Below are positions 6,622-64,000 of a stretch of DNA of 64,000 nt, piece after piece; the stretch's first letter is position 1, and each line of letters starts with the position of its first letter. The stretch comes from Eledone cirrhosa (lineage: Eukaryota): the NCBI GenBank assembly GCA_964016885.1, contig OZ024755.1:12834001-12898000 (forward strand). Direction: 5' to 3'. A program made the position numbers and the translations under genes. The notes below the pieces were generated by a model, which was given only the letters and a program-made list of their open reading frames with translations, did no database searches and was not told where the DNA came from.

Positions 6622-6735
6622 TGCGCGTGTGCGTGTGCGTGTGTGTGTACACACATATATGGAAAAGAAATCATGAATCAGCATGGAACTTCTCTTAAAT
6701 GATTTAATAAGATAAATATTTGAATAATAATTCTT

Positions 6736-7150
6736 TCTATATTTGGCACAAGGCCAGAAATTTGGTGGAGCGCATCTCCTCTCTAGGTCTGAGCACATTT
6801 TTTCCAGAAAAGGAAAAGGGATAGAGATATAAAGGGAAAATCGATCTCAGTACTGAGTTGATACATTGATTATCGACCTCGGAAGGATGAAAGTAAAATT
6901 GACCTCGGTGGGATTTAAAGTCAGTCAGAGAGAGAGAGCGAGAGAAAGAGAGGATCGATCTCAGTACTGAGTTGGTACATTGATTATTGATCTCGGAAGG
7001 ATGAAAGTAAAATTGACCTCGGTGGGATTTAAAGTCAGTCAGAGAGAGAGAGCGAGAGAAAGAGGGGATCGATCTCAGTACTGAGTTGGTACATTGATTA
7101 TTGATCTCGGAAGGATGAAAGCAAAATTGACCTCGGTGGGATTTGAAGTC
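6736..7150 (-). mobile_element. SINE family A fragment with ~115-bp internal tandem triplication
   Basis: GATCGATCTCAGTACTGAGTTG...GGAAGGATGAAAG...GACCTCGGTGGGATTTAAAGTCAG occurs three times with GA-rich spacers. Confidence 0.75.
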
Positions 7151-48454: not shown

Positions 48455-48510
48455 TATGCTGCAACGCATGGCGTCCGACCCTGTGCCCAAGATAAATATA
48501 TATATATATA

Positions 48511-48693
48511 TGGCCGTGTAGGTAACACGGTAAAAACCTCCCAGTCCACACTGTAAACGTGGTTGGTGTTAGGAAGGGCATCCAGTCGTAGAAAACCTGC
48601 CAGACAGTACTATACGAGCAAGACAACCAATCTTGCCTCAAGTGGGACAATTCCCGTCTAAACCCATGCTAGACGTTAAACGATGATGATGAT
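48511..48693 (+). mobile_element. SINE/RTE-related element with (GAT)n tail, resembling octopus OK-type SINE 3' part
   Basis: GGTTGGTGTTAGGAAGGGCATCCAGTCGTAGAAAAC ... GACGTTAAACGATGATGATGAT. Confidence 0.55.
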
Positions 48694-49629
48694 ATATATA
48701 TGTATACACACACATGTATGTGGTTGACGGTTCAGAGAAAGGAGTACTCAGTCCTGTAATAGAGTTTTAATATTCAATATTCTTGTTCTTATCTGATATA
48801 TATATATATATATATATATAATACAAACGTGGTATATTCAAAGATTGAGGACGACATCACAATATGGCGGAGTGTTTGGTGTTAAACCCAACGAAACTTA
48901 AGTATCTGCGTATATATAATAACTCTTAAGTGTATAAATATATATATGTATATATATATATACATAAAACTTTGCATCTTCGAAATATATATAAATCATT
49001 CGTTTATTACTATTATATATATCGAACCTTGAGTTGATCAATAACGAAACGCGCGTCACAATAAACGTAATGAGGGGTTAATAAATCGTCCTTGTATTAT
49101 CAGAGAGAGAGAGAGAGAACAAGGTACGCTGGTTGCTTTTGTTGATCTGGAGTGTGGTTTTAAAAATATATCAATTTTTATCCTGCCTAGATTATCTCTA
49201 TTTAAATAAGATTTTATAGAAAGCACACTTAAATAAATAGGATTAACCTGAACATATCTAAAACTAGCTGCCTTTAAAATACAGAAAGTTTTGTCAATTG
49301 AGGTAGCACGCGACACGAACAAATTTGGAAAATATATCCTTGTAAATTCAAAGGGCCATCTTGTCAGACACTGAATCTCCCTGAGAATTACGTTACGGCT
49401 ACGCGTATCAGTAGAATACTCAGCCATTTACATGTAAATTTCACGACGAGGCTGTTCCGTTGATTGAATAACTGGAACACTCGTCGTCGAAACTGACGAA
49501 GGTCCATTCTATTCCTGTCAACCTTTTTATTAGATTTCACACCGTGTAAAAACTAATTGTCACGTTGAATTTTTTTCTGTAAATTAATTCTTTATTTGTT
49601 CCTTCCTGTCATACCCTTAATGGTTACAG

Positions 49630-49702
49630 ATGGAATCTTCCAAGACAGCTTCCAATGAAGATGGGAAACGTCAATCTGAACACGGGACCAACTCCAATTT
49701 TG
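49630..49702 (+). CDS. Putative second coding exon (MESSKTASNEDGKRQSEHGTNSNF+G)
   Basis: Pyrimidine-rich tract then TTACAG| acceptor, open phase-0 frame, donor G|GTAAGA (phase 1). Phases fit both the 46038 exon and the 56444 exon. Confidence 0.65.
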
Positions 49703-54618: not shown

Positions 54619-54680
<62 letters not shown>

Positions 54681-55159
54681 GTTCGATGAGCCATTGATTA
54701 CAGAGTCGGGCTAGATCGATACAGATCGACCCTTGAGCTGATCAATAGCGAAACGCGTGTCACCAACCAATAAACGTAATGAAGGAGTAACCATTCGTCC
54801 TTGGTTTATATATATATATACTCAGTGATGCTTTTATCAGGAGTTGCGACCAGTAGATAGCATCATCAATGTGAAGAACAATGAAAATGTTTTTGTTGGT
54901 TTGTTTGTTGTTATTTTTGTCATTTTTTTGTCCTTACCTGTTGTAGATTTGAAGAAATTAAAAAAAACAAATGTCAATCGAAGGATGTTAATTTTAGTGA
55001 AGTAAAACTAAACTCAGAAGGCTTAGTGGCTAGGGTGTTCGGCTTGTGGTCGTAAGGTCGTGAGTTTGATTCCCAGTGTAATACAGAATTCATCATTATC
55101 ATCAGTTAATTCAGGAAACATTATTACATTTTCAATCAAATTCTATTCTCCGTGAAATC

Positions 55160-55475
55160 ACGTGACTTAGTGGCTAGGACTTTTAGCTCATGGTCGTGAG
55201 TTCGACTTCCGGACCTAGCAGTGCATGTCTCATTAAGCAAGACACTTTATTCCACGTTGCACCAGTTCACTCCCTTAAAAAACAAAAATAAGTTGTACCA
55301 GTAATTCAAAGGGTCAGCCTTGTAATACATTGTCACGCTGAATCTCACTAAGAACTACGCTACGGGTGCACGCGTGTGTGGAATGCTCAGCCACTTGCAC
55401 GTTAATTTCATGAGAAAGCTGTTCCGTTGATTGAATCAACTGAAACACTCGTCGTCGAAACCGACTGAGATCCAA
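55160..55475 (+). mobile_element. tRNA-derived SINE family B (CORE-like), near full length
   Basis: TGACTTAGTGGCTAGG A-box, GTGAGTTCGA B-box, CORE-like AGCAAGACACTTTATT, 3' part TGTCACGCTGAATCTC...CAGCCACTTGCACGTTAATTTC...GTCGTCGAAACCGAC. Confidence 0.8.
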
Positions 55476-55589
55476 CCCACTCACAACTAAACTGCAATAA
55501 TATACTTAAGAACGGAGAATAAAACTAGACTGCAAACATTTTAACTCTACTTACGAGAGTGAGACATAGAAATGTTAGGCAAGTCGTAG

Positions 55590-55873
55590 ACATGGCTGTG
55601 TAGACACAGACATGGCTGTGTTGTCATAGCCGTGGATGTGTGGTCGTAGGCACGGCTGTGTTGTCATAGCCGTGGATGTGTGGTCGTAGGCACGGCTGTG
55701 TTGTCATAGCCGTGGATGTGTGGTCGTAGGCACGGCTGTGTTGTCATAGGCGTGCATGTGTGGTCGTAGGCACGGCTGTGTTGTCATAGCCGTGGATTTG
55801 TGGTCGTAGGCACGGCTGTGTGGTCGTAGCTATGGATGTGTGGTCGTAGGGACGGATGTGTGGTCGTAGGGAC
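55590..55873. repeat. 20/40-bp dimeric minisatellite (GGCTGTGTTGTCATAGCCGT GGATGTGTGGTCGTAGGCAC)
   Basis: Alternating A/B 20-mers. Confidence 0.9.
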
Positions 55874-56443
55874 TATTTAACATCTTAACAGATCAACAGA
55901 AAATCGGGAATTTAAATATGTTAAACATTATTGCTGTTGTTGTTGTTATTTCAGTGTAAACATACTAATGATATAAAAGTAAAGAATACTATTTTGTTAT
56001 TGTTACTCTTTGTTGTTGTTGTTACTGTAGTTGTTGCTGTTGTAGTTGTTACTGTTATTGTTACTGTTGTTACTTCAGTGTAAACATGCTAATGATATAA
56101 AAGTGAACTGTATCATTTTGTTGTTATTGTCTCGTTGAATATGTTATTGTTGTTGTTGTTGTCATTGTTATCGTTGTTATTGTTGCTGTTATTTGTGTTT
56201 ATGATGATGTCCTTATTGTTGCTGTTGTTGTCTTTGTTATTGTTGATGTCGTCGTATTGTCATATCCACTGTTGTTGTTGTATGTGATATCCACTGTTAT
56301 TTATACAAAAATCTGTAGAAACCAAGTTTTGATATTCTTGTTCTTAATTTTTTCTTTTTTTTTTAATTACTTTTCCTTTCTTTTTAACGAACCTAACCAA
56401 AACAACAACAACAACAAAACAACAACAAAACACAAAAAAATAG

Positions 56444-59400
56444 CGAACGGAGGAGAAATGATTAGCAATTCACCGAGGACTGGTCAAGAGCCAGAGCAAC
56501 TGACTAATAGTGCAGCAGGTATCAATGATGCTAATGATGTTACTACTTCTACTTCAACAATATCTGCTGCTACTGCTGTTCCTCTGGTTGTTATAACACC
56601 TCAACAAAACGCAATCACAAAAAATAACACAGATTATAATCTCAATGGTGAAAATGATTTCAAAGACGACTTGAAAAAATCAAAGTCGTCTGGTTTATCA
56701 ATGGAAATGTTCAAACATCCTGATTTAGCTGAATTGTTAAAGAACCCCGTTCTGACACCTTCTTACCAAGTAACAAGGTTACAGTTGCTACAGTCACATT
56801 TAGAAGCGGCCTGTAGGAAAAGAAACAGTTCTTTCGTTAATGGCGACTTGAAATCGGGAACAAGGGTGATTGCTAGTCCAAGTGTGTTCAAAACGGATGC
56901 GAATTCCATGATAACTCTAAAGAATATCAATTCCTACTTGGAAATCGAAGATACAAAAGAGATCGATGCTGGTGCTAATGGTTTGTTACAGAACCAACAA
57001 CTTCAGTCCCATTTGATGCAGATGAATTTCGACGTGAATATTGACTCGAATATTAGTGAATCCAATGACAAGTTACAGTACTGTGGAGTTATCATGCCGA
57101 GTGCATCACGAGAGAGACTAAACGTTATTGGGTCGAATCCGACTTCAATCCTCAATCACTTCAGTGCAGAATCTGAAAAGCTGTGTGAGATAGGTGGCTA
57201 CCCACAACGAAAATTCGATATCTACAAAGTTCGATCTGTGAAACTGGAACAAACGCTTTATAAAGAGACGTTATCGTTGAAGAACGACACGACATCATCG
57301 AATGACAGTGGAAGCCAAGACAATGATATTTTAGATGAAGAAAATACCGTCGCTAATAAAGAGGTTCCTATGAAAAAAATCGATAGAATCGATACTGATG
57401 GAGTTCGAAAACAAATAATCCCAGAAATAGGTAACTGCTGTTCAGAAAATAATTTGGATAAATCGAAACCGATCAACAAATTAGGCGTAAGACTGAAAAT
57501 GTTGCTGTCCAGATGGAGCAACAAAGTTATTCTGAAATTGGAAAATAATGCCTCTGGTGCTAACAAACGTTCTGGGAAAAGTTCCTCGAGAAAATATAAC
57601 GATATTGTGGCTGGAAATCTTCGTGGATCGATCGAGGATCAAACAATGAATACAAACCAAATATTACCAAAATACAATAACGATAGTGTAATTAGTGAAA
57701 CACTGAGAGACAATGGCGAACAAGTTGAAACTAATATTGTAGATGTTTCTAAAGAAAGAAACGATGATGACACTTCAATGGAGACGACGAACAATGAAGA
57801 AAACTCGTTTAAAAATGGAGAGAATAATCCTCAACAAAGAGAAAGCGAAATCCTTTTCAGCAAAGCTATAATGTTAGATGGTGAACCCGTTGTTCTGGAG
57901 GCTTCATCACAAAACAACTCCAATGACTGTTTGGCAATGGCCGTTCCAACTACAATAGGGCGTCCATTAAAAACAAAAGAAAACGAAACAAAATACATAG
58001 AAAATCTCACAAAAGAAATTAATTGTACTACTACTACTAGTAGTGATCCAGAAGATGACAGTAAAGCGTGCATGGACGAGGAAGAGTTCACAAACACCGA
58101 GGGAAAGAAAGGTGAGGAGAAATTCTCCGGTGAAAATACAAAAAAATGTGTTGCTTATGTTTTCATAAAAGCCAAGCCTGACTTGCAACTTGACGACAGA
58201 ACTAAATGTTTAACTGAACAGAACAGAATTCCTGTGATATGCCAGGAAAATTCACATTCGAAATATCGTGTAGTTAGTTCTTCGCAACATCCAAATATTA
58301 TAAATTACTCCAACGGAAACGGTGAACATCAAACGGAAATAATGCCGAACAAGGATACTACGAAAATAAAGAACAGTTTTGCGTCAGTTGAACAACAGAT
58401 TCCACAAGAACAACAACAACCAACAGAAACGATTGATAAAGCAGCTTTTTCGGTTAAGTTTCCAATGGGTGAGGATTTATTTTTACCAAAAATGTTTTCT
58501 TGTAGTCCGAGTGTAGATTTCGTACAAAATCCCTCTCCAACTAACAGCTCCCAAACTGATTCCAAAGTCCCAGCTGTCAGGTTACAGACAAACGATATGG
58601 ATAAAACCATTGAGATCAAAGAAAAGATTTCCCTTAACGTGGAAGAAAACAATTTCTTGTTACTTCCGAAATGTGTTTCTAAATCGTGTGATGTTATCTC
58701 AAACAGAAACAAACTTTCGTTAGAAAACGACGACTCAAAATATGATTGTGGTTTTAATATTGAACTTTTAAACAGTAATAATTCAAATACGAATGTTAGT
58801 CAAAAGACGTCCGGTTGCACCACAGGACCAATTTCGAAAATAGATAGTTTTGCTATAAGAAAGGAATCGTTTGCTGGATTCGAACAAGAAGTTCTCCCGT
58901 TGGGTTCTGAGATGATTCAAACAAACAGTTCTCTAAAAGGAATATTAAAATGTCCGCTAATAAGCAAAAAGGAAAGCATTCCTAATATTGTTAAAGAAAA
59001 TGAAGCGAGTTCGATACCTAACAACTCTACTTCTGGGACAATAAACATCTTGATTAACTCTGAACAAAATCTAACTGGTAAAAATGTACCTGGTAATTTG
59101 AGCAGTAAATATAAAATGGTGGCGACAACATCTCCTGATATTCTCAGTGATAGTGTTACATCTAACGAGAAAAATATTCGAACTGATTTCACAGAGTCGG
59201 ATGATCCGACCTGCTTCACTGGAAAAGATATGAGAAATGAGTCGGATGCCACGGGAGATGCATGTAAGACTAACAAAATCAATGTCCCTATTTTCGCATT
59301 TGAAAAGACAAAACTTAGAGATATTATTTCTCTGTTGGGTTGTAAGCTGATAGAAACATCGAATTCTTCAAAAAGCCAATTTTCGAGCAGTTCGAAGGTC

Positions 59401-62400
59401 AACTTTGAAAACAATAACGAGGTTAAAGAGAAATTGATTAATCCGTATGATTGTAAACTAGAAAGTCGATCAGACTGTAAACCAGGATACATCATTAGTA
59501 TTTCGCCGGAAGACAAGCTGAAGAATACCAGTAATAATAGCGGGTCATTGGTATCAAAGGAGAAAGAAAAAGTATATAAAGATAGAATTGTCGTGTCGTC
59601 AAACTTTGAAAGCAATGATACAACAGGGAAAGATAGCAGCAGAACACTACAACTAGAGAAAACAGATGATATGATGGCAAAACCAGTTACAAAAGGAACC
59701 GTGTCAAATGAGGATATCAGTGCCACTAGAGTGTTTGATAAAAGCTACACGCTAAAGAAAGCAGGAGTTATGTTTGCTTTAACTGACATGATTGGTAGTG
59801 GCACGAACCGTTTAGCATTTTCTGATGTAGTTGATGCTGAAACCAGTCGTACAAATCTTTCTGATGCTTCAAATGATGCGATAAATAAAGACAAAAACCA
59901 TATACGTTTGCCTGGTACAAATCGAGATAGCAACTATAAATCTATGTCCAATGACGTCAATGGAGATAGAAACTGTGGTGATCTACCTGCGAAATATGTG
60001 CAGAAAACTCAAACGAAAAACAATCTGGAGGAAAATGAAGAAGCTAGTGCTGATTCCTCAGTAAAAAGACAAAACAGCAACAATTCATTCGCTTTCACTG
60101 AAGATGGTAGTTCAAACGCCCCAGGAAATAGCTGTTCCGGTGAGAGAATGACTAGGAATAAATACGCTGAGGAATTTACTTTCGAGATACCTAGGTTTGC
60201 ATATTTCTCAATTGAAGAAATGGACGACAAACTAATAGAAGCAGGTAAGACTAAATCTTTACCGAAGATGACAAATTATAGGATTTCACTTCAAAAGGAG
60301 CTCCTGTCTCCATCTGGTCCAGTCGGTGAGACTGAATTCCGAGAGGAGAATTCGAACACTTCTCTTAGAATCGAAGGTAAATTAACAGGTCAGGAACGCT
60401 GCTCGATTACAAAAAGTGTTTGTGGCTTTATAAGCGGCAAATACGGAATGAATAAGACTAGCGATGGGGACCACCGTAAAAGAGACATTAGAGTCCAGTT
60501 TGATGAAGAAGAAGTGAATATATACAGCCAACGAGCAAATAATATCACAAGTTATATACGACCGAATAAAATGAATGACATAGTATTAACTGAAAATCTC
60601 GCCTCTTCAGATTTGCCGGAGAAAATTAAAACTTCTTTTTGTTCGACGGAAACAGATTCTACAGGCGGAGTAATTTCGTTGAACAGTTCCCAAAACATGT
60701 CAGCGGAACAGTTGAAGGACGCTGTTGTTATTGACAATGATTTGATTGCAACTTCTGTAGTCGATAAAATAACGTGTACCCAAAACGATAATATCGGTGT
60801 CGACAATTTATTTTATGATCCCCTAGCCTATATTATCGAAAGTATGTCGTATTCTTTAGTCGATGACCATATTGGAGAAGAGGAGATCTTTGTTAAAGAG
60901 AACAAAATAAAGGGAGACATAGAAGCCATTGACGAGAAACCAACTAAGACGTTTCCCGATAAAAATACAATGCAGATAGTAACTAGTAAAATAATAGTTA
61001 AGGACGCTAGTGGTCTTGCGGAAGGAGGGGCAACAGGAGATAAAGAAGACGGAGGGGTGACAGGACAAAAACAAGATGGAGGAAGAGCGACAGGTGAAAA
61101 ACAAGAAGGAAGGACAACAAGAGAAAAACTATATGGGGCAAGATTGATAGGGAGGAAACGAGAAAGAAGGACGACAGGAGAAAAACACGAAGGAGGAGGG
61201 GTGACGGGTGAAAAAGATAATGAAGATTCCAGCCAAAATACTTCGAACACAAACCAAAATGAAACTACAAAAGTAAACGGTTGTGGTTGTTCTCCACGTG
61301 AAAATAATCAAGATCTGAAAGAAGAGATTACCATTGTAAAGTGGCCAAGCAGTCTACCAACAACGGTACAAGTTTACCCGACTGAAACTGCTCTCCATAA
61401 CTCAACGGAGACATCAAATGTGGACAATAATATAGTTTCAGATGTCATATCTAACAATAATATATCAAATATTGATTCATTGAACAGTACCGTACTAAAC
61501 GGTACCACATCGAGCAAGGTTGTCATACCACTCGATAGCCCAATAAACGATGTCCTATCAAACAGTGTCAATTCAAACAGAACCTTATCAAATGGTGTCC
61601 CATCAAACGGTGTCCTATCAAACAATGCCCCATCAAACGGTGCTCTGTCAAACGATGTTACCTCCAGCAGCGTGCAATCAAACGGTGTTAAGACAAACAG
61701 TAACATATCGAGTGGTTGCACTACCATTAACGTTGTACCGTGTGCTGATGCAGCAGCGATGTCAAGTAACATCGTATCAAACAACTTTATAATGAAATAT
61801 GATTCTGAAAATAATCAAAAATTCTCAACCGTTGCAGACGAAGATGTCGATACATTTACAGTGGGTGACGTCAGAAACATCGCGACAGAAGTTGCATGTA
61901 GGACAAAAGATATAAATTTTTCTTTGTCAAACACCAGAACAGCCAGGTCTAGACAGAATTCGCTGACTATTTCATTAGACGATGTCACAACCAACCAGCA
62001 CTGTCGAGATCGTGAAGAAAATGAAGATATTGCATACATACAAGAAAACCTAGCAAGATATATAATGGAAAATGTTGCCAACATCACTTATCCAAAACCT
62101 AGTGATCTTATAGGAATTGGCTATAATTTCGTTGACACTAACAACGATCCAATAGAAAAGGCTTTTAAGAGCCACTGTCATGAAATGTATAAAAACACGA
62201 AACAATCGTCTTCGAATTCGTCCCCCGATATTTCAGATAGTGTTAAAAACTCCTCTAAAGTCACCCCATTCCACAGAACCGTTGAGAATCGTCTGGATTT
62301 GGTTAAAATGGATATTACAAATGTTTCTAAAGCAAGAATCGGCGTAAAAGACTGTGTGACGTGTCTGGCGATAAATGTTGGTGACAACAGATGTTATATT

Positions 62401-64000
62401 CAGAAAAATACAATACAAGCTAAATTGAAAATGGCCAATAATACTACCGAAAAACTGTTAGTGAACATCTCTGATTTTATTAAAGAGCAAAACGATGATG
62501 ACGGTAATAATAATGATGTTGATGGCCGTAATACATCTATCAACGACCAAGATGGAAACAGTTTGTGTTTTAAGGCAGTTTCGGAGAGAAAACCAATACA
62601 AGAATTACCTGAAACCCTCTCAGAGAAGTTTTTTGAACAAAAAGAAAGGTTGGTTGCGGTGGTTACGGCGGAAAAGGCCGAAAAGATTTACGAAATATCA
62701 GAGGAAAATACGATCGAAGTTGAACAAAATGTAAATGGGAATGTAAAAGTTTATAACAAGAAACAAGCAAATTGTATTGAACAAAACCTGGAAACTTCTA
62801 GCGAAGAAAAAACACAAGAAACGTCAAATAGTGAAGTTGTATCAGAAAGGACTAGCTCGACTGAGTCTCCTGGGAACAATACTGCTACTCTGTACTCAGC
62901 TGTGGAAACTGATACTTCTTCAATACAGGCATCGAATTCTCAATTTGATTCTAATCAAAAACAAAAAGTTTCCGAAACAAAACAAGCAAAGGTTATTTCT
63001 GATTCGAAGACTAAAATCACAATTGAATCTGTATTGATTGATACTAACAGAGCTGCTCTTCCGAATAACGATAGAAACATGTGTGATCCGAACATTAAAT
63101 CTCAAATTATACAGAAGGATTCATCTAGTGGTATGGCGTCTAACATAGTTACCCTTCTGTCTACAAAGATCCCAAATTTAAATCCGTCAACAAATATTGC
63201 AAGACAGTTTACTATTGATGAAAATATAAAGGGGAAACCACCATTTTCTGTTGTAGCCGATGAAGCAGAACATAATGGAAACGAGGCTCCAAAATCTAGA
63301 AAAATGGAAGGAAATCCTGATAGTTTTAAATCTCTCCATATAAATATTTCTAACCCGGAGAAGAGAAACGGTGAAATAGAAACGGGAAATGTCGAAAAGG
63401 ATTTTGTAAATATCTTAAAGACAATTACAAGAAAAACATCAAGTTCAAACGACAATTCAGTTCCGTTGGAAGAATGTGCAACAGAAAATCCTGGTCTGGT
63501 GAAACGGATCTGGGTAAATACTGTACAGAACCGAGCAGACGGTGCGGATAGCAGTCAAGGAATTTCAAATATTTGCGATGCTAAAAAGTCAACTATTATA
63601 TCTGTCCATAGAAATGTTTCGACGTCTGGTCATGAAAATACTTCCATGAGAAGCGCAATGAAGGAAGTCGTGGAGAAGAAGGAAATCTTACAAATTTCTC
63701 GTAACGAGGCCAGTAGCTCTAAATTTAAGTTTGATAAAGAAATTCTGGATCAAATTATCGAAACCAACACAGTACCTCTGTTGTCAGAGAACGGCTTAGT
63801 ATATAGTTTCAGTTCAATTTTAAACCCATTGGGGGCTATAGTTATAAACTCTTCAAATCCTTCACCAGGAAATGGTAGTAGCAATCCAGAGCTAAATAAA
63901 AATACAACTAATCCAACAAAATGTGAAGAGGGGAAAGAATGGTCAGATGCTGTCCAATCGAATGGACAACAATCAGAATATACGACCAGTATACCGAGAA
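56444..64000 (+). CDS. Giant coding exon (>7.5 kb, 2518 codons, 3'-truncated by window end); uncharacterised low-complexity, likely disordered protein
   Basis: Acceptor TAG at 56441-56443, phase 1 (G|CG). Frame reads NGGEMISNSPRTGQEPEQL...MEMFKHPDLAELLKNPVLTPSYQVTRLQLLQSHLEAACRK...NGQQSEYTTSIPR. No stop in the lines translated, and the ORF track lists no stop-terminated ORF in this frame. The region is free of microsatellites and SINEs, unlike the rest of the window. Confidence 0.92.

What the first reader, a model, noticed from the sequence alone, without database searches (positions are those of the whole stretch)
56444..64000. Hidden giant exon: >2500 uninterrupted codons missed by the ORF track
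Seen: one frame appears open from the TAG| acceptor at 56443 to the window end, in the only long repeat-free stretch of an otherwise repeat-saturated window. The product is rich in S, N, T, E, K and D, has no domain I recognise, and has a short helical-looking patch near the start (HPDLAELLKNPVLTPSYQVTRLQLLQSHLEAACRKR). Inference: a giant, probably disordered and possibly lineage-specific insert exon. It could be tissue-specific, by analogy to the giant exons of ankyrins and muscle scaffolds.
Basis: partly seen in the sequence, partly recalled or inferred. Interest (0 to 1): 0.75.

Follow-up and report, generated by a model that had tools for sequence, protein, structure and literature searches.

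The report
Giant octopus exon inflates tiny protein
A 9.5-kb unbroken reading frame, conserved in other octopods, sits inside a gene whose relatives in oysters and other animals make a protein of only about 270 amino acids, and likely splices in as one giant exon to give a 3,380-residue, predicted mostly floppy scaffold; public octopus gene models already contain it, but no study of it was found.

Summary
Frame +1 has 0 stops in 2,518 codons to the window end and continues to 66045. All junctions are GT-AG, the protein is 3,380 aa, and the exon is 94% of the CDS. Orthologous models exist: O. sinensis LOC115211134, O. bimaculoides LOC106884259 (71% identity) and a partial Argonauta model (40%). 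New here: the C-terminal 180 aa belong to an unnamed family whose other members are only 251-428 aa (oyster and unnamed animals). One genomic relative has the same intron phases. The exon therefore looks like an octopod insert in a small old gene, and the three Octopus-type genes also lack one conserved exon. The host is no ankyrin or known scaffold. Skipping and tissue specificity are not shown: all 7 Octopus models seen include the exon, and no RNA data were available. Another animal (L057) may carry an unrelated exon of 2 kb or more in the same slot. The scan earlier noted a comparable case in shark nesprin-2, not this gene.

The parts
48850..49130 (+). Likely promoter and 5' UTR first exon (CpG-rich patch, candidate donor near 49125); inferred
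   Evidence: CpG observed/expected 1.05-1.42 at 48500-49500 against 0.59-0.94 in the five flanking bins; sequence read; no transcript evidence
49630..49702 (+). First coding exon, 73 nt (24 codons + 1 base); an AG acceptor directly before the ATG, phase-1 GT donor
   Evidence: tblastn of the O. bimaculoides N-terminal 27 aa: best hit in 453 kb, 60% identity, E 1.6e-5; splice sites
56335..56443 (+). 3' splice-site region of the giant exon: pyrimidine tract, CTAAC, AAC microsatellite, TAG acceptor ending at 56443
56444..64000 (+). In-window part of the giant exon. The whole exon is 56444-65965 in window-extended coordinates (G000:C15 offset 12834000): 9,522 nt, or 9,516 nt with the tandem donor at 65959; phase 1-1; about 3,174 codons; S/N/K/T/E-rich; predicted mostly disordered with conserved islands. 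Beyond the window lie the four small host exons (extended coordinates 74661-74742, 76413-76491, 76976-77121, 77346-77586) that encode the conserved C-terminal 180 aa
   Evidence: 71% identity to two Octopus models and 40% to Argonauta; the tandem donors match isoform pairs in both Octopus species

Best explanation
This is a conserved 9.5-kb open frame that likely splices as one internal exon into a small, old animal gene and was likely gained in the octopod line, turning a protein of about 270 residues into a 3,380-residue one predicted to be mostly disordered. Shown: the open frame, GT-AG sites with matching phases, single-locus orthology to the short family, and selection against stops with invariant islands. 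Taken from public gene models: the junctions to the neighbouring exons. Inferred mechanism: the exon is part of the main mRNA. The C-terminal 180-aa helical module keeps the ancestral anchoring role, folding only on a partner. The insert works as a long flexible spacer or scaffold whose 39 invariant islands of 10 aa or more are short docking motifs, with a neutral-to-acidic first 2,600 residues and a basic last 800. My guess for the site of action is the sperm or flagellar cytoskeleton (about 0.4). It rests only on the fast evolution and on recalled giant low-complexity testis proteins. The real-exon step stands at about 0.95, the insert-in-small-gene step at about 0.85 and the scaffold role at about 0.6.
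For: 0 stops where about 230 are expected. Neutral mutation to 70% identity gave 47-72 stops in 20 of 20 runs, and at most 10 identical runs of 14 aa or more against 24 observed. A six-exon model has all GT-AG sites and one terminal stop. Orthologous models of 3,232 and 3,271 aa have the same tandem donors. The C-terminal profile finds 4 clusters of 255-291 aa among 7,871 candidates, one of them Magallana gigas A0A8W8MSV6. Three intronless contigs give 263, 307 and 428 aa with in-frame stops upstream of the Met. P0011 (255 aa; its cluster lies on 48 contigs, none longer than 1,074 nt) is sister to the three Octopus-type sequences at 100/100. Its only matches in G000 are exons of this gene (3 matches, 12 candidates scored). 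L057 shares the intron phases 1, 2, 0, 2, 2 and the 79-nt exon. FoldIndex is below 0 in 63% of windows, with no transmembrane segment and no internal repeat by self-BLAST; there is no Pfam family.
Against: No RNA was examined here, so inclusion, skipping and tissue are unshown. The O. sinensis models start inside the exon and not at the upstream exon. The Argonauta model lacks the host domain and matches well only over aa 796-2495. L057 may have a large exon in the same slot, which weakens 'octopod-only' for the architecture. Invariant columns are not enriched in hydrophobic residues (27.8% against 26.7%), so the docking-motif reading has no compositional support. The host domain diverges as fast as the insert (70-72% against 71%), has lost an exon and has eroded its best-conserved motif, so the ancestral anchoring role may not be kept. 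The taxon of P0011 is unknown; 'non-Octopus cephalopod' is inference.
Confidence: 0.6

Rival explanations
1. A regulated cassette as in giant ankyrins: most tissues make the 206-aa skip form, and one tissue (neurons or germ line) switches the giant exon in.
For: Both exon lengths are multiples of 3 and skipping gives an open 206-aa protein. An 18-aa optional segment lies at the same position in a relative (P0018 against P0012). The acceptor looks weak or odd.
Against: All 7 Octopus models seen include the exon or its 3' part. The profile search of 14-315-aa proteins gave no Octopus short form among its 4 hits, and none was among the 9 members of the two Octopus clusters. This is weak evidence, because the collection's coverage of octopus transcripts is unknown.
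Confidence: 0.22
2. The slot is ancient: the phase-1 intron of this gene has long held an optional low-complexity exon that expands and turns over beyond recognition, so octopods enlarged an old exon and did not gain a new one.
For: L057 has an E/S/K/R/D-rich frame of at least 2,059 nt on the same strand, ending at a phase-1 donor that joins the first family exon in frame. P0018 has an 18-aa insert at this position.
Against: No BLASTP similarity between the L057 frame and 3 of 3 octopod proteins, and the composition differs. The L057 join is only my model: the frame is cut by the locus edge and could belong to a neighbouring gene.
Confidence: 0.12
3. A separate single-exon gene nested in the intron of the small gene, with its own ATG at 56458 and stop at 66046, and wrongly fused by annotation pipelines.
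For: An ATG lies 15 nt into the exon and the frame reads through the donor to a stop 27 codons later. The O. sinensis models start inside the exon, and the Argonauta model has a different C-terminus.
Against: Both Octopus species join it downstream through either of two conserved donors. Alignment to the orthologues ends at the donor. The O. bimaculoides model joins the upstream exon with matching junction residues.
Confidence: 0.05
4. An artefact, a transposon or viral ORF, or a pseudogene.
For: None beyond the lack of RNA data here.
Against: Single-copy depth and unbroken contigs with 0 differences in 3 of 3 runs, all from one sample. One match in the genome. No Pfam family. Open in four species despite about 50 indel events against Octopus.
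Confidence: 0.01

Closest known systems
RefSeq/GenBank models: O. sinensis LOC115211134 (XP_036358208-11), O. bimaculoides LOC106884259 (XP_014791026.2), Argonauta hians GAB1606808.1
   Same: Orthologues, 70.6%, 71.1% and 39.5% identical. The Octopus models have the same C-terminal module and tandem donors.
   Different: All are labelled uncharacterised or hypothetical. No paper in the library names these identifiers, and the link to the short family is not in their labels.
Unnamed short family: Magallana gigas A0A8W8MSV6 and A0A8W8MNE0, P0011-P0013, L046-L048, L057
   Same: Same motifs along the 180-aa module (29-60% identity) and the same intron phases in L057.
   Different: 251-428 aa without a giant insert in the transcript-like forms. 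They keep a segment of about 45 aa (a 135-nt phase 2-2 exon in L057) that the three Octopus-type proteins lack.
Giant ankyrin-B and -G neurospecific exons (PMC7401806, passages read)
   Same: A single internal exon of about 8 kb acquired in one lineage, predicted disordered, with conserved boxes. The paper notes an independent origin of such exons in Drosophila.
   Different: There the host is a multidomain membrane adaptor and the exon is neuron-specific and binds microtubules. Here the host is about 200 aa with no known domain, the exon is 94% of the CDS, and no skipping or partner is shown.
Ultra-long internal exons over 1 kb (PMC11446547, passages read)
   Same: An internal, AT-rich exon far above 1 kb (such exons are 0.4% of internal exons in HEK293 by that paper).
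   Different: 9.5 kb against the example of about 4.2 kb quoted there (REV3L). RBMX-type control was not tested here.

Membership tests
Orthologue of LOC115211134 / LOC106884259 | Collinear identity over the whole protein, including the small exons | tested here: met
   70.6% and 71.1% over about 3,200 columns; five small exons located
Unnamed short family (oyster A0A8W8MSV6) | Shared C-terminal module and single orthologous locus | tested here: met
   E 1e-64 to 2e-32; P0011 matches only this locus in G000
Unnamed short family (oyster A0A8W8MSV6) | Conserved intron positions and phases | tested here: met
   Phases 1, 2, 0, 2, 2 and the 79-nt exon shared with L057; near-complete structure available for 1 of 12 loci
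Unnamed short family (oyster A0A8W8MSV6) | Middle STRLP/SDVP segment | tested here: not met
   Absent from the window's gene and from both Octopus models; not in the 224-nt intron
Giant-ankyrin-type insert exon | Single multi-kb internal exon with frame-preserving phases | tested here: met
   9,522 or 9,516 nt, phase 1-1; junctions rest on orthologous models, not on RNA
Giant-ankyrin-type insert exon | Gained in one lineage inside an older gene | tested here: inconclusive
   Short relatives and exon matches limited to octopods favour it. The L057 frame, and a sensitive search that missed even the known orthologues, leave it open
Giant-ankyrin-type insert exon | Encodes largely disordered sequence | tested here: met
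   Prediction only: FoldIndex below 0 in 63% of windows; no Pfam family
Giant-ankyrin-type insert exon | Tissue-specific inclusion with a short isoform | not testable with these tools
   No RNA run was available to lay on the junctions; all 7 Octopus models include the exon
Ankyrin, nesprin or titin-like scaffold genes | Host has ankyrin, spectrin, Ig or similar domains | tested here: not met
   0 Pfam families in the full proteins and none above cut-off in 9 short relatives. One weak profile match to RFXANK (E 0.003) was not repeated by the other profile
Transposon or viral ORF | Multi-copy, or carries mobile-element domains | tested here: not met

The most novel reading that the evidence does not exclude
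One phase-1 intron of a small conserved animal gene is a size-tuning slot that has been filled independently in different lineages (18 residues in one animal, at least 686 in another, 3,174 in octopods), and octopods rebuilt the protein around the insert (more than 12-fold longer, one ancestral exon lost) as a molecular ruler or scaffold for an octopod-specific cell structure. This would make it a natural experiment on how multi-kilobase exons arise and get spliced.
Probability: 0.25. Interest if true: 0.75.

Novelty: new variant of a known kind. Interest (0 to 1): 0.52.

Why it matters
How multi-kilobase coding exons arise is open, and the familiar cases sit in large multidomain scaffolds. 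Here the before and after states can both be seen: a protein of about 270 aa in oysters and in the closest short relative, and a protein of about 3,300 aa in octopods, with intron phases preserved. This makes the origin, the splicing and the function of a giant exon testable by comparing cephalopod genomes and by junction counts in public RNA-seq. The gene itself is already in automated annotations, and no function or expression pattern is shown, which limits the score.

Tried and rejected
RNA evidence: no RNA holder listed. The three runs are contigs of one sample and behave as DNA. HMMER search of 1.84 billion representatives with exon residues 1-600 gave 0 hits, not even the known orthologues, so it is uninformative. 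ESM Atlas: only weak leads at 0.82 or below for the exon start and no usable hit for the C-terminal module. A single-sequence search of 316-2,000-aa proteins found only the O. bimaculoides fragment, 1 of 780 candidates, so long forms in other molluscs are not excluded. AlphaFold2 gave mean pLDDT 45.7 for P0011 with 11 rows and 33.3 for the best-conserved exon stretch with 5 rows; both are uninformative. Foldseek against PDB found nothing at E 0.001 or below. The RFXANK ankyrin match is treated as chance. Linear-motif patterns (RVxF, SxIP, TQT; recalled from memory) gave 2 of 5, 2 of 7 and 1 of 1 identical in both Octopus species, none identical in Argonauta, so they were not used. Literature: identifiers gave 0 papers, 'octopus' with 'giant exon' 0, and a five-term large-exon query 0; some searches returned listings of which none concerned this gene by title or abstract start. 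Supplements of PMC9712504 (3 files searched, 1 unreadable), PMC9699675 (3 searched, 1 not searched) and PMC11202624 (1 file) had no hit for the identifiers. They may use other gene ids, and the unseen files could hold expression values. The full length of the L057 frame could not be determined. Pfam on 80 of 123 other window ORFs found 0 families. dN/dS was not computed because no orthologous DNA was available.

Full report
Observation. Translation of the window gives 0 stops in 2,518 codons from 56446, against 145 and 291 in the other + frames. The window is G000:C15:12834001-12898000. With the adjoining stretches the frame runs to 66045 in window-extended coordinates, 3,200 codons from 56446. 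About 230 stops are expected from base composition. Contigs of three runs from one sample cover the stretch at flat depth 5-9 with no other letters, while nearby repeats reach about 38,000. A protein search of the genome finds one place. The feature is real and single-copy.

Gene model. A homologue search returned 3 proteins among 7,976 candidates scored: O. sinensis LOC115211134, an O. bimaculoides model and an Argonauta hians model. Their clusters list four O. sinensis isoforms and three O. bimaculoides models. tblastn over 453 kb located four small downstream exons and a 73-nt upstream coding exon at 49630-49702. The model 49630-49702, 56444-65965, 74661-74742, 76413-76491, 76976-77121, 77346-77586 has GT-AG at every junction and one terminal stop, and encodes 3,380 aa. 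The giant exon is 9,522 nt, 93.9% of the CDS, in phase 1 at both ends. A second donor 6 nt upstream gives 9,516 nt. The same 2-residue difference separates isoform pairs in both Octopus species, which suggests that real transcripts lie behind those models (inference). Splicing is not observed here, since no RNA could be laid on the locus.

Selection. Identity is 70.6% to O. sinensis, 71.1% to O. bimaculoides and 39.5% to Argonauta. Neutral mutation of the exon to 70% identity produced 47-72 stops in 20 of 20 runs. It gave at most 10 identical runs of 14 aa or more, against 24 observed, and a longest run of at most 28 against 38. At 40% identity the neutral longest run was at most 11, against 28 observed with Argonauta. 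About 50 indel events against each Octopus keep the frame. There are 39 three-way invariant runs of 10 aa or more, covering 684 residues.

Nature of the product. No Pfam family was found in 4 of 4 long proteins. FoldIndex is below 0 in 63% of 51-residue windows, the highest 19-residue hydropathy is 1.45, self-BLAST shows no internal repeat, and the charge is neutral to acidic up to about residue 2,600 and basic after it. Against the docking-site idea, invariant columns are no more hydrophobic than variable ones. AlphaFold2 on the best-conserved stretch was uninformative.

The host gene. A profile of the C-terminal 180 aa found 4 clusters of 255-291 aa among 7,871 candidates of 14-315 aa. One includes Magallana gigas A0A8W8MSV6 and A0A8W8MNE0, and the others are unnamed. 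A metagenome scan gave 12 related loci from 81 pattern matches. Three are intronless and encode 263, 307 and 428 aa with stops upstream of the Met. In a tree of 11 rows (three Octopus-type C-termini, four cluster representatives and four of the 12 loci; the other eight loci are fragments and were left out), P0011 is sister to the three Octopus-type sequences at 100/100. Its cluster has four 255-aa members on 48 contigs no longer than 1,074 nt. That it is a non-Octopus cephalopod is my inference. P0011 matches only this locus in G000, and its hits break at the same exon borders. L057, the one locus of 12 with a near-complete structure, shows phases 1, 2, 0, 2, 2 and the same 79-nt exon. It also has a 135-nt phase 2-2 exon whose segment is missing from all three Octopus-type proteins and from the 224-nt intron here. 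So the giant exon lies in the phase-1 intron of a small old gene. The family has no Pfam match above cut-off, no credible PDB sequence match and a low-confidence helical model with no fold match. Its function is not known from these data.

Results against a simple story. Skipping would give an open 206-aa protein, but all 7 Octopus models seen include the exon or its 3' part and no short Octopus protein turned up. The O. sinensis models start inside the exon. The Argonauta model has no host domain. The host module diverges as fast as the insert. L057 has an unrelated charged frame of at least 2,059 nt, 3.5 kb upstream of the first family exon, with a phase-compatible donor and no BLASTP similarity to 3 of 3 octopod proteins. 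P0018 has an optional 18-aa piece at the same position. The slot may therefore be a recurrent site of variation. The sensitive search for exon relatives failed its own positive control, so 'octopod-only' rests on the word-based search.

Mechanism. I commit to a main, long mRNA encoding a mostly disordered scaffold anchored by the C-terminal helical module, with the invariant islands as docking sites. The open frame, the orthology and the selection are shown. Inclusion is taken from public models. The scaffold role and a possible sperm or flagellar site are inferred, the last from recalled examples only; one library search for them returned nothing useful.

Comparison. It works like the giant ankyrin exons: a single 8-kb, disordered, lineage-acquired exon, arisen independently in flies and vertebrates (PMC7401806, passages read). 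It is not an ankyrin and its host is tiny. It belongs by size to ultra-long internal exons (PMC11446547, passages read). No paper naming these genes was found, nor an entry in the supplements searched (two files not searched). An earlier scan note on a shark nesprin-2 exon describes a comparable architecture in a large host; I did not test it.

Verdict. Real, already present in automated annotation, apparently unstudied. The new part is the link to a short ancestral protein. New variant of a known kind; interest 0.52.

Noticed in passing
L057:2-2060 (+): An E/S/K/R/D-rich open frame of at least 686 codons, cut by the locus edge, ends at a phase-1 donor that joins the first family exon (5545) in frame: possibly an independent large exon in the same intron slot.
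   Followed up: partly
L057:5886-5964 and 6715-6793: Two tandem 79-nt copies of the Pro/Tyr-motif exon, both phase 2-0; including both would shift the frame, so they are likely mutually exclusive exons.
   Followed up: partly
window-extended 77122-77345 (L003:4122-4345): The 224-nt intron where relatives have a 135-nt phase 2-2 exon; the segment is missing in all three Octopus-type proteins. The best-conserved C-terminal motif is also eroded in this genome.
   Followed up: yes
window 56335-56443: Unusual 3' splice site: a pyrimidine tract, then a CTAAC, then about 55 nt of AAC microsatellite before the AG; no AG between 56326 and 56443.
   Followed up: partly
window 48850-49130: CpG-rich patch with an ATGGCG motif near 48864 (a YY1-like site, recalled) and a short upstream frame; likely the promoter of this gene.
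   Followed up: no
window 61021-61215 and 61545-61658: In-frame 27-nt and 15-nt tandem arrays inside the exon, in a region of low identity to Octopus: local expansions that may show how the exon grows.
   Followed up: no
window 54668-55669: Very high-copy short interspersed repeat pieces (contig depth up to about 38,000) and a minisatellite at about 55590-55880 in the intron before the exon.
   Followed up: no
window-extended 129175-130179 (-), in L008: A 335-codon frame that looks like a LINE reverse-transcriptase fragment (recognised from memory, not scanned).
   Followed up: no
P0004, P0005: O. sinensis X3 and X4 end in a shifted frame after the first host exon, consistent with skipping the 79-nt exon and losing most of the conserved module.
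   Followed up: partly
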